Assembly (NCBI RefSeq): GCF_016026235.1
Contig: NZ_CP065613.1
DNA length: 64,000 nucleotides
Source: Escherichia coli
GTDB taxonomy: Bacteria; Pseudomonadota; Gammaproteobacteria; Enterobacterales; Enterobacteriaceae
Direction: 5' to 3' (one strand)
Shown here: positions 29,101 to 31,747 of the stretch, piece after piece
How the letters are laid out: every line of letters starts with the position of its first letter
Position numbering within the stretch: position 1 is the stretch's first letter
Made by a program: the position numbers

Positions 29101-31747
29101 CCTGACGTTCACTGGTGGTGGAAACCAGCATCTCTTCGATGATCTCTGGCAGCGTTTGTGCATTTGACTCCACCGCACCGGTCAGCGGCCAGCAGCCCAG
29201 CGTACGGAAACGCACCATCCGTTTTTTAATCACTTCGCCCGGTTGCAGGTCGATACGGTTGTCATCAATCATCATCAACATACCGTCGCGTTCCAGAACC
29301 GGACGTTCCGCAGCGAGATACAACGGAACAATGTCGATATTTTCCAGCCAGATGTATTGCCAGATATCCTGCTCGGTCCAGTTAGAGAGCGGGAAAACGC
29401 GGATGCTTTCGCCTTTGTTAATCTGCCCGTTATAGTTGTGCCACAGCTCCGGGCGCTGATTTTTCGGGTCCCAGCGATGGAAGCGATCACGGAAAGAGTA
29501 GATACGCTCTTTAGCACGGGATTTCTCTTCGTCGCGGCGCGCACCACCGAAGGCGGCATCAAAACCGTATTTATTCAGCGCCTGCTTCAGGCCTTCGGTC
29601 TTCATAATATCGGTATGTTTCGCGCTGCCGTGCACGAATGGATTAATCCCCATCGCCACTCCTTCCGGGTTTTTATGCACCAGCAGCTCGCAGCCGTAGG
29701 CTTTCGCCGTACGATCGCGGAACTCATACATCTCGCGGAATTTCCAGCCGGTATCGACATGCAGCAACGGGAAAGGCAGCGTACCTGGATAAAACGCCTT
29801 GCGCACCAGATGCAGCATGACGCTGGAATCTTTACCGATAGAGTAGAGCATCACCGGATTTGAGAATTCTGCCGCCACCTCGCGAATGATGTGGATGCTT
29901 TCCGCCTCCAGCTGTCGTAGGTGGGTAAGTCGTTTTTGATCCATAACCGTTCCTTTGCAATACCGCTATTTTCTTGCCATCAGATGTTTCGACTATAGGG
30001 AGCGTAAGAGAACGAATGAAATTACCAATTAGAATGAGTAGTTCCTTAACGGAATAACGATTTGGCAAAGCTAATATCAAAAAGTGCTTAAGGCACCGGA
30101 TTTCGGGCGTTTAGGAAGATTTGAAATTGTTTTAGCGCAGCGGCAGTTTCATACTATGGCGGTAAAAAAATTTGCATGGTATTTAAGGACTCACTATGTT
30201 TTCCGCATTGCGCCACCGTACCGCTGCCCTGGCGCTCGGCGTATGCTTTATTCTCCCCGTACACGCCTCGTCACCTAAACCTGGCGATTTTGCTAATACT
30301 CAGGCACGACATATTGCTACTTTCTTTCCGGGACGCATGACCGGAACTCCTGCAGAAATGTTATCTGCCGATTATATTCGCCAACAGTTTCAGCAAATGG
30401 GTTATCGCAGTGATATTCGGACATTTAATAGTCGGTATATTTATACCGCCCGCGATAATCGTAAGAGCTGGCATAACGTGACGGGAAGTACGGTGATTGC
30501 CGCTCATGAAGGCAAAGCGCCGCAGCAGATCATCATTATGGCGCATCTGGATACTTACGCCCCGCTGAGCGATGCTGACGCCGATGCCAATCTCGGCGGG
30601 CTGACGTTACAAGGAATGGATGATAACGCCGCAGGTTTAGGTGTCATGCTGGAACTGGCAGAACGCCTGAAAAATACGCCTACCGAGTATGGTATTCGAT
30701 TTGTGGCGACCAGCGGCGAAGAGGAAGGGAAATTAGGCGCTGAGAATTTACTCAAGCGGATGAGTGACACCGAAAAGAAAAATACGCTGCTGGTGATTAA
30801 TCTCGATAACTTAATTGTTGGCGATAAATTGTATTTCAACAGCGGTGTAAAAACCCCTGAAGCAGCAAGGAAATTAACGCGCGACAGGGCGCTGGCAATT
30901 GCGCGTAGTCATGGAATTGCCGCAACGACCAATCCGGGTTTGAATAAAAATTATCCGAAAGGCACTGGGTGTTGTAATGACGCAGAAATATTCGACAAAG
31001 CGGGCATTGCTGTACTTTCGGTGGAAGCGACTAACTGGAATCTTGGGAATAAGGATGGTTATCAGCAACGCGCAAAAACAGCCGCATTCCCTGCGGGAAA
31101 TAGCTGGCATGACGTAAGACTGGATAATCAGCAACATATTGATAAAGCACTTCCTGGAAGAATAGAACGTCGTTGCCGTGACGTTATGCGGATAATGCTA
31201 CCGCTGGTGAAGGAGTTGGCGAAGGCGTCTTGATGGGTTGGAAAATGGGAGCTGGGTGTTCTACCGCAGGGGCGGGGAATTCTAAGTGATATCCATCATC
31301 GCATCCAGTGCGCCCGGTTTATCCCCGCTGATGCGGGGAACACAATGACTACTGCTTTCGAAATTTATAGTGCGGCGGTTTATCCCCGCTGGCGCGGGGA
31401 ACACAGGACTGTTTTATGTTGCCGGTACAGCTCCAGCGGTTTATCCCCGCTGGCGCGGGGAACACGAATTTGGGGTGATGCAGCGTCATCAGTCGGCCGG
31501 TTTATCCCCGCTGATGCGGGGAACACCAGCGTCAGGCGTGAAATCTCACCGTCGTTGCCGGTTTATCCCTGCTGGCGCGGGGAACACCTTTAGGCAAGGG
31601 GATCCCCTGCCAGCTATGGCGGTTTATCCCCGCTGGCGCGGGGAACACACTAAGCATACATATCTGTTTTTAAACAAATTTATTCCACATCAACAATCTA
31701 CCAACTAAATTCAAACATTTCCTTATTTTTAAAGAACACATAACCTA

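What the first reader, a model, noticed from the sequence alone, without database searches (positions are those of the whole stretch)
31254..31648. CRISPR array: spacer content and variant repeats
Spacers from the iap side to the leader are: S0 taagtgatatccatcatcgcatccagtgcgcc; S1 aatgactactgctttcgaaatttatagtgcgg; S2 aggactgttttatgttgccggtacagctccag; S3 gaatttggggtgatgcagcgtcatcagtcggc; S4 cagcgtcaggcgtgaaatctcaccgtcgttgc; S5 (newest) ctttaggcaaggggatcccctgccagctatgg. S5 contains the palindrome GGGGATCCCC. Two repeats share a GGCG-to-GATG loop variant and one repeat (31559..31587) has a stem mismatch that could impair Cas6e processing of the neighbouring crRNAs. The repeat ends in AACAC, the Salmonella-like I-E variant rather than the K-12 AACTC form, and Cas3 and Cascade are strongly diverged from what I recall of K-12 while Cas1 is close.
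Basis: seen in the sequence. Interest (0 to 1): 0.45.

Follow-up and report, generated by a model that had tools for sequence, protein, structure and literature searches.

The report
Ordinary E. coli CRISPR array, decayed
This is the well-known CRISPR array next to the iap gene of Escherichia coli, in its common (non-K-12) form. Its odd repeats are old inherited variants also present in K-12, and two essential cas genes beside it are broken, so it is ordinary and probably cannot defend the cell.

Summary
Window 31254-31648 holds a type I-E CRISPR array: one degenerate terminal repeat, six 29-nt repeats and six 32-nt spacers, exactly as listed. It is transcribed on the minus strand from the leader at 31649-31744.

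It is the E. coli CRISPR-I (CRISPR2.1) array of the I-E1 cas/leader variant, the majority E. coli type, not specifically Salmonella-like.

The variant repeats are ancestral. The GATG-loop repeat follows the anchor spacer S0 in 1200 complete E. coli genomes. K-12 carries S0-R(GATG)-S4-R(CCCTGC) at its iap end. The second GATG copy indicates recombination between repeats, so spacer order is not a simple time line.

The stem mismatch weakens the hairpin (-9.0 against -15.2 kcal/mol), and S5 is predicted to compete with it. No processing defect was tested.

The question matters little in this strain. cas7 carries an amber codon (Q206, at a Dcm site) and cas3 an 11-bp frameshift. An IS4-family element with an inversion abuts cas3.

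No spacer matched any phage, plasmid, viral or metagenome sequence searched. S1, S2, S3 and S5 occur in none of 5426 complete E. coli genomes.

Verdict: already known kind, low interest.

The parts
30196..31233 (+). iap gene, the conserved left flank of the E. coli CRISPR-I locus
   Evidence: 99.1% amino-acid identity to K-12 Iap
31254..31282 (-). Degenerate terminal ('anchor') repeat
   Evidence: Matches the repeat consensus at 19 of 29 positions. Identical to the terminal repeat of O157:H7 and strain 100181.
31283..31314 (-). Spacer S0, the anchor spacer
   Evidence: Present in 3749 of 5426 complete E. coli genomes
31315..31343 (-). Repeat R1, loop variant (RNA tetraloop AUCA instead of GCCA)
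   Evidence: The exact S0+GATG repeat occurs in 1200 genomes, including O157:H7 and K-12. Hairpin -14.4 kcal/mol.
31344..31375 (-). Spacer S1
   Evidence: Absent from complete E. coli genomes. No protospacer found.
31376..31404 (-). Repeat R2, canonical I-E1 repeat
31405..31436 (-). Spacer S2
   Evidence: No matches.
31437..31465 (-). Repeat R3, canonical
31466..31497 (-). Spacer S3
   Evidence: No matches.
31498..31526 (-). Repeat R4, a second copy of the GATG loop variant. Corresponds to the K-12 repeat that precedes S4.
31527..31558 (-). Spacer S4, shared with K-12, where it is the second-oldest spacer
   Evidence: Found in 651 complete genomes.
31559..31587 (-). Repeat R5, stem variant (C.A mismatch in the RNA hairpin)
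   Evidence: Hairpin -9.0 against -15.2 kcal/mol. In-context pairing probability 0.03. The same variant follows S4 in K-12, but there it ends in AACTC.
31588..31619 (-). Spacer S5, leader-proximal, containing the palindrome AGGGGATCCCCT (31597-31608)
   Evidence: The spacer alone folds at -13.9 kcal/mol. No matches anywhere.
31620..31648 (-). Repeat R6, canonical, leader-proximal
31649..31744 (-). AT-rich leader of the L1 (I-E1) type
   Evidence: Identical to the leaders of O157:H7 and strain 100181; differs from the K-12 leader
31745..32038 (-). cas2e, intact
   Evidence: TIGR01873, 133.8 bits. 99% identical to the E1 reference.
32038..32958 (-). cas1e, intact
   Evidence: TIGR03638, 380.6 bits. 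99.3% identical to the E1 reference and 84% to K-12.
32955..33605 (-). cas6e, intact (the pre-crRNA endonuclease)
   Evidence: TIGR01907, 288.8 bits. 99% identical to the E1 reference and 27% to K-12 CasE.
33587..34333 (-). cas5e, intact
   Evidence: TIGR01868
34344..35399 (-). cas7e pseudogene: amber codon Q206 (CAG>TAG at 34784-34782)
   Evidence: The ORF stops after 205 of 351 residues. The context CCAGG>CTAGG is a Dcm site.
35414..35950 (-). cse2/casB
   Evidence: TIGR02548
35947..37509 (-). cse1/casA
   Evidence: TIGR02547, 607 bits
37607..40295 (-). cas3 pseudogene: an 11-bp deletion near 39296-39298 splits it into 378-aa and 557-aa ORFs
   Evidence: The close relative L003 has an intact 899-aa cas3.
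40474..41773 (-). IS4-family insertion sequence next to cas3, at the junction of an inversion
   Evidence: NF033591, 360 bits. Terminal inverted repeats match at 21 of 22 positions. Beyond it lies K-12 position 3,024,406 running downward.

Best explanation
This is the chromosomal CRISPR-I (CRISPR2.1) array of an Escherichia coli strain that carries the I-E1 variant of the type I-E system.

Expected mechanism (established for type I-E, not tested here): the array is transcribed on the minus strand from the L1 leader. Cas6e cuts each repeat at the 3' base of its hairpin. This gives 61-nt crRNAs with an 8-nt 5' handle, a 32-nt spacer and a 21-nt 3' hairpin.

The three non-canonical repeats are old, inherited variants, not recent damage. 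The GATG-loop repeat is the one that follows the anchor spacer S0 in about a third of S0-bearing E. coli. The block R(GATG)-S4-R(CCCTGC) is the same block found at the iap end of the K-12 array.

The array is therefore best read as a recombinant mosaic of three pieces: [S0-R1-S1-S2-S3], then [R(GATG)-S4-R(CCCTGC)], then [S5-R6-leader]. Close relatives then differ from it by deletions between repeats.

In this strain the system is decaying. cas7 has an amber codon and cas3 a frameshift, so no Cascade backbone and no Cas3 nuclease-helicase can be made. cas1, cas2 and cas6e remain intact.

The array is thus most likely a non-defending relic. The weakened R5 hairpin has no selective consequence here.
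For: - Anatomy of the array and its statistical support.
- All eight I-E Cas families score above the NCBIfam cut-offs.
- The operon is 96.7% identical to E1-type E. coli and the leader is identical to that of O157:H7.
- Cas1 and Cas2 are 84-86% identical to K-12, while Cascade and Cas3 are 20-33%. This matches the published E1/E2 dichotomy (PMC3903273; PMC2886076).
- The iap end of the K-12 array reads S0'-R(GATG..AACAC)-S4-R(CCCTGC..AACTC).
- S0 plus the GATG repeat is exact in 1200 genomes.
- S4 plus the CCCTGC repeat is at 99% identity or more in 653 genomes.
- In O157:H7 and strain W21, S0-R(GATG) is followed by other spacers with canonical repeats.
- Related assemblies carry S0-S1-S5, or S0..S4-Sx-S5.
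- cas7 Q206 amber and the cas3 11-bp deletion.
- No protospacer found for any spacer.
Against: - No expression or processing data exist for this strain.
- Cas1, Cas2, Cas6e, the leader and the leader-proximal repeat are intact, so spacer acquisition and crRNA cutting are not excluded.
- An amber codon can be partly suppressed in supE-type backgrounds. This was not checked.
- The mosaic history is inferred from a handful of arrays. The opposite direction of events is not excluded, namely a K-12-type arrangement derived from a window-like ancestor by deletion between R1 and R4.
Confidence: 0.9

Rival explanations
1. One reading: the stem mismatch in R5 measurably impairs Cas6e cleavage. The S5 crRNA, which needs the R5 hairpin as its 3' handle, and the S4 crRNA, which needs the R5 cut for its 5' handle, would then be under-produced.
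For: - R5 folds at -9.0 kcal/mol with a 1x1 internal loop; the canonical repeat folds at -15.2.
- In a context of 45 nt on each side, the predicted stem-pair probability is 0.03 for R5 and 0.9 or more for the other five repeats.
- The palindromic, GC-rich S5 is predicted to pair with R5.
- Uneven crRNA loading from the K-12 array has been attributed to spacer-dependent structure (PMC5904413).
Against: - Prediction only.
- A 'repaired' R5 is still predicted to form at only 0.15 because of S5. With shuffled S5 sequences the variant hairpin forms at 0.52 on average, and 9% of shuffles do as badly as the real S5. The repeat variant alone is therefore not decisive.
- The same variant persists next to S4 in about 650 genomes, including K-12.
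- Cas6e binds its hairpin co-transcriptionally and tightly (general knowledge, not tested here).
- In this strain the outcome does not matter, because cas7 and cas3 are broken.
Confidence: 0.3
2. The array is a simple chronological record of an active system. S0 is oldest and S5 newest, each spacer was added at the leader, and the variant repeats arose by independent point mutation in place.
For: - Regular 61-nt spacing.
- Intact leader, cas1 and cas2.
- S5 is leader-proximal in every related array seen.
Against: - Two identical double substitutions (GG>AT) in R1 and R4 are unlikely to be independent.
- K-12 has S4 directly after S0 and R(GATG).
- Relatives differ only by loss or retention of internal spacers, never by new leader-end spacers.
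- cas7 and cas3 are inactivated.
Confidence: 0.07
3. The window-like order S0-S1-S2-S3-S4 is ancestral. The K-12-type S0-S4 adjacency arose by deletion between R1 and R4, not by the window array being assembled from two arrays.
For: - Deletion between repeats is the commonest change in CRISPR arrays and is seen among the relatives.
- R1 and R4 are identical, so a deletion between them would leave exactly the K-12 junction.
Against: - S1-S3 occur in none of 5426 complete genomes, while S0 occurs in 3749 and S4 in 651.
- This history still needs an earlier event that copied the GATG variant to a second, non-adjacent repeat.
- The window's terminal repeat and the first base of S0 are O157-like, not K-12-like.
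Confidence: 0.3

Closest known systems
E. coli CRISPR-I / CRISPR2.1 array with the I-E1 cas-leader variant (O157:H7 type; Diez-Villasenor 2010, Almendros 2014 PMC3903273)
   Same: - Position between iap and cas2.
- 29-nt repeat GTGTTCCCCGCGCCAGCGGGGATAAACCG and 32-nt spacers.
- Degenerate anchor repeat plus anchor spacer S0.
- L1 leader identical to that of O157:H7.
- cas-E1 gene set.
   Different: - Spacers S1, S2, S3 and S5 are private to a small clade.
- It carries the K-12-type block R(GATG)-S4-R(CCCTGC).
- cas7 and cas3 are pseudogenes.
- The hok/sok-cysH flank is replaced by an IS4-family element and inverted xdhD DNA.
E. coli K-12 CRISPR-I array (I-E2 variant)
   Same: - The iap-proximal block S0-R(GATG, AACAC)-S4-R(CCCTGC) is shared nearly base for base.
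- Same repeat hairpin.
   Different: - K-12 repeats from the one after S4 onward end in AACTC.
- The leader is L2.
- Cascade and Cas3 are only 20-33% identical.
- K-12 lacks S1-S3 and S5.
Degraded I-E loci of Shigella and some Salmonella (Touchon & Rocha 2010, PMC2886076)
   Same: Frameshifts, nonsense mutations and an IS beside or within the cas operon, together with a short array (for the published pattern; for this window).
   Different: The source here is labelled E. coli. Decay is limited to two point lesions and one flanking IS. cas1, cas2 and cas6e remain intact.

Membership tests
Type I-E CRISPR array (E. coli CRISPR-I / CRISPR2.1) | Direct repeats of 29 nt matching the type 2 consensus, spaced by spacers of about 32 nt (61-nt period) | tested here: met
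   Six copies with at most 2 mismatches and a 61-nt period; none in 100 shuffles
Type I-E CRISPR array (E. coli CRISPR-I / CRISPR2.1) | Repeat RNA forms a 6-7 bp GC stem with a tetraloop (the Cas6e substrate) | tested here: met
   Canonical repeat -15.2 and GATG variant -14.4 kcal/mol, with the same 7-bp stem. R5 is weakened to -9.0. The terminal repeat is largely unfolded at -5.3. This is prediction, not experiment.
Type I-E CRISPR array (E. coli CRISPR-I / CRISPR2.1) | Location between iap and cas2, with an AT-rich leader on the cas2 side and a degenerate anchor repeat plus anchor spacer on the iap side | tested here: met
   published description in PMC3903273
Type I-E CRISPR array (E. coli CRISPR-I / CRISPR2.1) | Adjacent cas2-cas1-cas6e-cas5-cas7-cse2-cse1-cas3 gene set | tested here: met
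   All eight families are found in that order above the NCBIfam cut-offs, although cas7 and cas3 are disrupted
I-E1 variant (Almendros 2014) | L1 leader and cas-E1 genes; repeats beginning GTGTT (AACAC on the plus strand of this window) | tested here: met
   Leader identical to O157:H7 and strain 100181. Cas proteins 93-99.7% identical to an E1 reference and 20-33% (Cascade, Cas3) to K-12.
I-E1 variant (Almendros 2014) | hok/sok and the IG4-cysH flank beyond cas3 | tested here: not met
   An IS4-family element and inverted xdhD-side DNA follow cas3. The relative L003 still has IS-hok-cysH, so this is a secondary rearrangement.
Functional type I-E interference system | Intact Cas7 backbone and intact Cas3 nuclease-helicase | tested here: not met
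   cas7 amber at codon 206 of 351; 11-bp frameshift deletion in cas3
Functional type I-E interference system | Spacers matching known mobile elements next to an AAG/ATG-type PAM | tested here: not met
   No protospacer in the INPHARED phage collection, the PLSDB plasmid collection, 5426 E. coli genomes or the IMG/VR viral contigs (all six spacers), nor in the JGI metagenome contigs or the GTDB species-representative genomes (three spacers). The PAM therefore could not be examined.
Functional type I-E interference system | crRNA produced and loaded into Cascade | not testable with these tools
   Needs RNA and protein experiments
Rfam CRISPR direct-repeat families | Match at the gathering score | tested here: not met
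   No Rfam family reached its gathering score in 28000-36000. This says nothing against the array, which is defined by the features above.

The most novel reading that the evidence does not exclude
The window's lineage keeps spacer S4 and its CCCTGC repeat inside an I-E1 array, with the repeat ending in AACAC. No such configuration was found among the 651 S4-bearing complete E. coli genomes, whose best alignments all stop before the E2-type AACTC end.

If this is the resident (parental) state, it supports the published model that the K-12-type I-E2 module entered by recombination inside the array. It also places the crossover in the 15 nt between the C>T stem variant and position 2 of that single repeat.

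The duplicated GATG repeat would then record a second recombination between repeats, one that joined two different arrays.
Probability: 0.4. Interest if true: 0.3.

Novelty: already known. Interest (0 to 1): 0.15.

Why it matters
It matters little beyond strain typing.

- The array is a textbook E. coli CRISPR-I locus.
- The I-E1/I-E2 split, the anchor repeat and spacer, slow spacer turnover, missing phage matches and decay of cas genes are all published.
- Two small points have some value. First, the variant repeats shared with K-12, together with the E1-type end of the S4-adjacent repeat, give a base-level view of where arrays and cas modules recombined. Second, the cas7 amber mutation sits at a Dcm methylation site and recurs in a diverged background, a tidy example of hotspot-driven loss of a defence system.
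- For a scan, the lesson is that a variant repeat should be compared with other strains before it is read as a defect. The neighbouring cas genes should also be checked for integrity.

Tried and rejected
- **Tandem Repeats Finder** did not report the array, because the spacers make the units too dissimilar.
- **Rfam** at gathering thresholds found nothing in 28000-36000.
- **Protospacer searches** were all negative:
  - INPHARED phage collection.
  - PLSDB plasmid collection. The only hits were array copies in mislabelled chromosomes and in an IncHI2 plasmid that captured an iap-CRISPR-cas block.
  - Complete E. coli genomes, for S1, S2, S3 and S5.
  - IMG/VR viral contigs, for all six spacers with N at every sixth position.
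  - JGI metagenome contigs, for S5 and S1.
  - GTDB species-representative genomes, for S5 and S2.
- **Self-targets**: none within the window at up to 8 mismatches.
- **S5 derived from a repeat?** The crRNA fold suggested this, but the similarity is not significant (P about 0.09 against shuffles). Rejected.
- **The 9-nt GGGATCCCC** shared by S5 and the IS inverted repeat is the kind of match expected by chance in 64 kb. Rejected.
- **Shigella origin** was suspected from the IS and the pseudogenes, but the source records call the organism E. coli.
- **Cas6e hairpin mutagenesis and K-12 data**: literature searches found no direct test of Cas6e hairpin mutants and no per-spacer crRNA levels for the two oldest K-12 spacers.
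- **Song & Wood 2022 'spacer 12'** (PMC9782134): whether it is S4 could not be settled from the text or the supplement.
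Full report
**1. What is there**

Window 31254-31648 contains six 29-nt direct repeats with a 61-nt period, at 31315, 31376, 31437, 31498, 31559 and 31620. No match to the repeat pattern occurred in 100 dinucleotide-preserving shuffles of the window. A degenerate seventh repeat lies at 31254-31282 and matches the consensus at 19 of 29 positions.

No other copy of the repeat exists in the 64-kb window.

iap ends at 31233. On the other side a 96-nt AT-rich stretch (31649-31744) leads to cas2, which is on the minus strand. 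The transcribed strand is therefore the minus strand, and the repeat as RNA reads GUGUUCCCCGCGCCAGCGGGGAUAAACCG.

**2. The cas genes**

NCBIfam places the neighbouring ORFs, in order, in Cas2e, Cas1e, Cas6e, Cas5e, Cas7e, Cse2, Cse1 and Cas3. All score above the curated cut-offs.

| Protein | Amino-acid identity to K-12 |
|---|---|
| Cas1 | 84% |
| Cas2 | 86% |
| Cas6e | 27% |
| Cas5 | 33% |
| Cas7 | 30% |
| Cse1 | 21% |
| Cas3 | 27-32% |

The flanking core DNA (cysN-cysD-iap) is 97.7% identical to K-12. The whole operon is 96.7% identical to many E. coli genomes of the non-K-12 type. The leader is identical to that of O157:H7 and of strain 100181, and differs from the K-12 leader.

This is the published I-E1 versus I-E2 dichotomy, in which each variant has its own leader and repeat end (Almendros et al. 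2014, PMC3903273; Touchon & Rocha 2010, PMC2886076). 'Salmonella-like' is better read as 'the common E. coli I-E1 type'.

**3. The variant repeats are inherited**

R1 and R4 carry two substitutions in the tetraloop (RNA GCCA>AUCA). R5 carries one substitution in the 3' arm of the stem (RNA G>A, giving a C.A mismatch).

The iap end of the K-12 array reads: degenerate repeat, S0 (differing in its first base), R(GATG, ending AACAC), S4, R(CCCTGC, ending AACTC), then K-12-specific spacers.

Counts among 5426 complete E. coli genomes:
- 3749 carry S0, and 1200 carry S0 followed by exactly the GATG repeat, including O157:H7 and K-12.
- 651 carry S4, and in 653 records the S4-repeat junction is at least 99% identical, meaning it has the CCCTGC variant.
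- The best alignment in any of these genomes stops at query position 59. None therefore has the window's AACAC end after S4.

In O157:H7 and strain W21 the GATG repeat follows S0, and unrelated spacers with canonical repeats come next. GATG is thus a property of the first full repeat.

The CCCTGC...AACAC repeat also occurs once in an unrelated E1 array, in strain N96.

**4. Array history (inferred)**

New I-E spacers enter at the leader and duplicate the leader-proximal repeat. This is established knowledge and was not tested here. Two identical GATG repeats separated by canonical ones do not fit stepwise growth.

The simplest reading is recombination between repeats that joined an S0-R1-S1-S2-S3 array to the R(GATG)-S4-R(CCCTGC) block known from K-12-type arrays. 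A crossover in the first 16 nt of the repeat would give the hybrid repeat its GATG loop.

The reverse history remains possible: a window-like ancestor, with K-12 losing S1-S3 by deletion between R1 and R4.

Related assemblies found through the truncated Cas7 protein show:
- the identical array (L004, L007, L008);
- an array with an extra spacer between S4 and S5 (L006);
- a shortened S0-S1-S5 array with a hybrid GACG repeat (L003).

The differences seen between these close relatives are internal loss or retention of spacers. No new leader-end spacer was seen. The S0-to-S5 order is therefore positional, not a reliable time line.

**5. The processing-defect idea**

| Repeat | Predicted fold as RNA |
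|---|---|
| Canonical | -15.2 kcal/mol |
| AUCA-loop variant | -14.4 kcal/mol, same 7-bp stem |
| R5 | -9.0 kcal/mol, with an internal loop |

With 45 nt of context on each side, the stem-pair probability is 0.9 or more for five repeats and 0.03 for R5. Part of this comes from S5, whose palindrome and GC-rich flanks are predicted to pair with R5. A repaired R5 reaches only 0.15. With shuffled S5 sequences the variant hairpin forms at 0.52 on average, and 9% of shuffles do as badly as the real S5. The same variant in its K-12 context reaches 0.2.

The idea is thermodynamically reasonable. It also fits reports that K-12 crRNAs are unevenly loaded into Cascade, which the authors attributed to possible spacer-dependent structure (PMC5904413). 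It remains a prediction. I found no direct mutational data for Cas6e hairpins in the library. The variant's persistence in about 650 genomes argues that it is at least tolerated.

**6. The system is broken in this strain**

The comparison is with an intact E1 operon (NZ_CM128595.1).
- cas7 has CAG>TAG at codon 206 of 351, at 34784-34782. The rest of the gene is 99.7% identical in amino acids to the reference.
- cas3 has an 11-bp deletion near 39296-39298 that splits it into 378-aa and 557-aa ORFs.
- A relative 99.6% identical over this region (L003) still has an intact 899-aa cas3 but the same cas7 amber.

Without the Cas7 backbone and without Cas3, crRNA-guided interference should not work. 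This inference rests on the established architecture of Cascade. cas1, cas2 and cas6e are intact.

**7. Spacer targets**

None of the six spacers matched anything searched.
- INPHARED phage collection.
- PLSDB plasmid collection, apart from array copies.
- IMG/VR viral contigs, allowing any base at every sixth position.
- For three spacers, the JGI metagenome contigs or the GTDB species-representative genomes.

S1, S2, S3 and S5 are absent from all 5426 complete E. coli genomes, both as spacers and as targets. There are no self-targets in the window. This agrees with the published observation that E. coli spacers rarely match known phages.

**8. Source and context**

Window 24782-45399 is 100% identical to contig UGFA01000002.1 of assembly GCA_900449985.1, whose proteins are labelled E. 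coli.

Right after cas3 lies an IS4-family element (about 40474-41773). It is followed by DNA that in K-12 lies at 3,024,406 and runs backwards towards xdhA. The usual hok/sok-cysH flank is therefore replaced through an IS-associated inversion of roughly 137 kb relative to K-12.

**9. Verdict**

The object is an already known kind of locus: the E. coli CRISPR-I array of the I-E1 type, with ancestral variant repeats and decaying cas genes.

The only mildly new point is that this lineage keeps S4 and its CCCTGC repeat in an E1 context. This may be the parental state of the repeat in which the K-12-type module recombined.

Interest is low.

Noticed in passing
window 34782-34784 (minus strand), cas7e codon 206: The amber mutation CAG>TAG lies in CGC CAG GCC, that is CCAGG>CTAGG. 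This is a Dcm methylation site, where 5-methylcytosine deamination is a classic C>T hotspot. The same mutation occurs in locus L005, whose cas7 is only 97.7% identical in nucleotides, so it has probably arisen more than once.
   Followed up: partly
window 39296-39298, cas3: An 11-bp deletion shifts the cas3 reading frame. A relative 99.6% identical over this region (L003) has an intact 899-aa cas3, so this lesion is younger than the cas7 amber.
   Followed up: partly
window 40474-41773 and 41771-64000: An IS4-family element with 22-nt terminal inverted repeats (21 of 22 matching) abuts cas3. Beyond it the DNA corresponds to K-12 3,024,406 down to 3,001,996 (xdhD to xdhA) in inverted orientation, a rearrangement of about 137 kb. 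The hok/sok and cysHIJ genes are not on this side.
   Followed up: partly
window about 20627-20629 (minus strand), rpoS: rpoS (20174-21166) is 99.4% identical to K-12 RpoS but has a premature stop at codon 180. The strain is probably RpoS-defective, as many stored culture-collection strains are.
   Followed up: partly
window 17228-20127: A 2.9-kb insertion relative to K-12 lies between ygbN and rpoS. It encodes a 475-aa UbiD-like decarboxylase, a 197-aa UbiX-like flavin prenyltransferase and a 135-aa MarR/SlyA-like regulator (names assigned from my reading of the translations, no family search run). This is the known polymorphic mutS-rpoS region.
   Followed up: no
L013 (NZ_LC542972.1, plasmid pIOMTU792, 243939-249967): A conjugative IncHI2 plasmid of 293 kb carries a captured chromosomal block: iap, a CRISPR array with an S0-like anchor spacer, and I-E cas genes.
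   Followed up: no
L016 (NZ_CM169999.1, strain N96), locus position 1501-1529: The same stem-mismatch repeat (CCCTGC, ending AACAC) occurs between unrelated spacers in a 19-repeat I-E1 array. The variant has either arisen twice or moved by recombination.
   Followed up: no
L003 and L006 arrays: Further repeat variants occur in close relatives. L003 has a GACG loop repeat at the S1-S5 junction, which looks like a GATG/GGCG hybrid. L006 has a T>G change in its leader-proximal repeat (CCCCGCGGGCG).
   Followed up: no
window 31588-31619 (S5) with 31559-31587 (R5): The S5 crRNA is predicted to fold on itself (-13.9 kcal/mol for the spacer alone) and to pair with the adjacent repeat. Its similarity to the antisense of the repeat (GCTGGC-AGGGGA) is not significant (P about 0.09).
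   Followed up: yes
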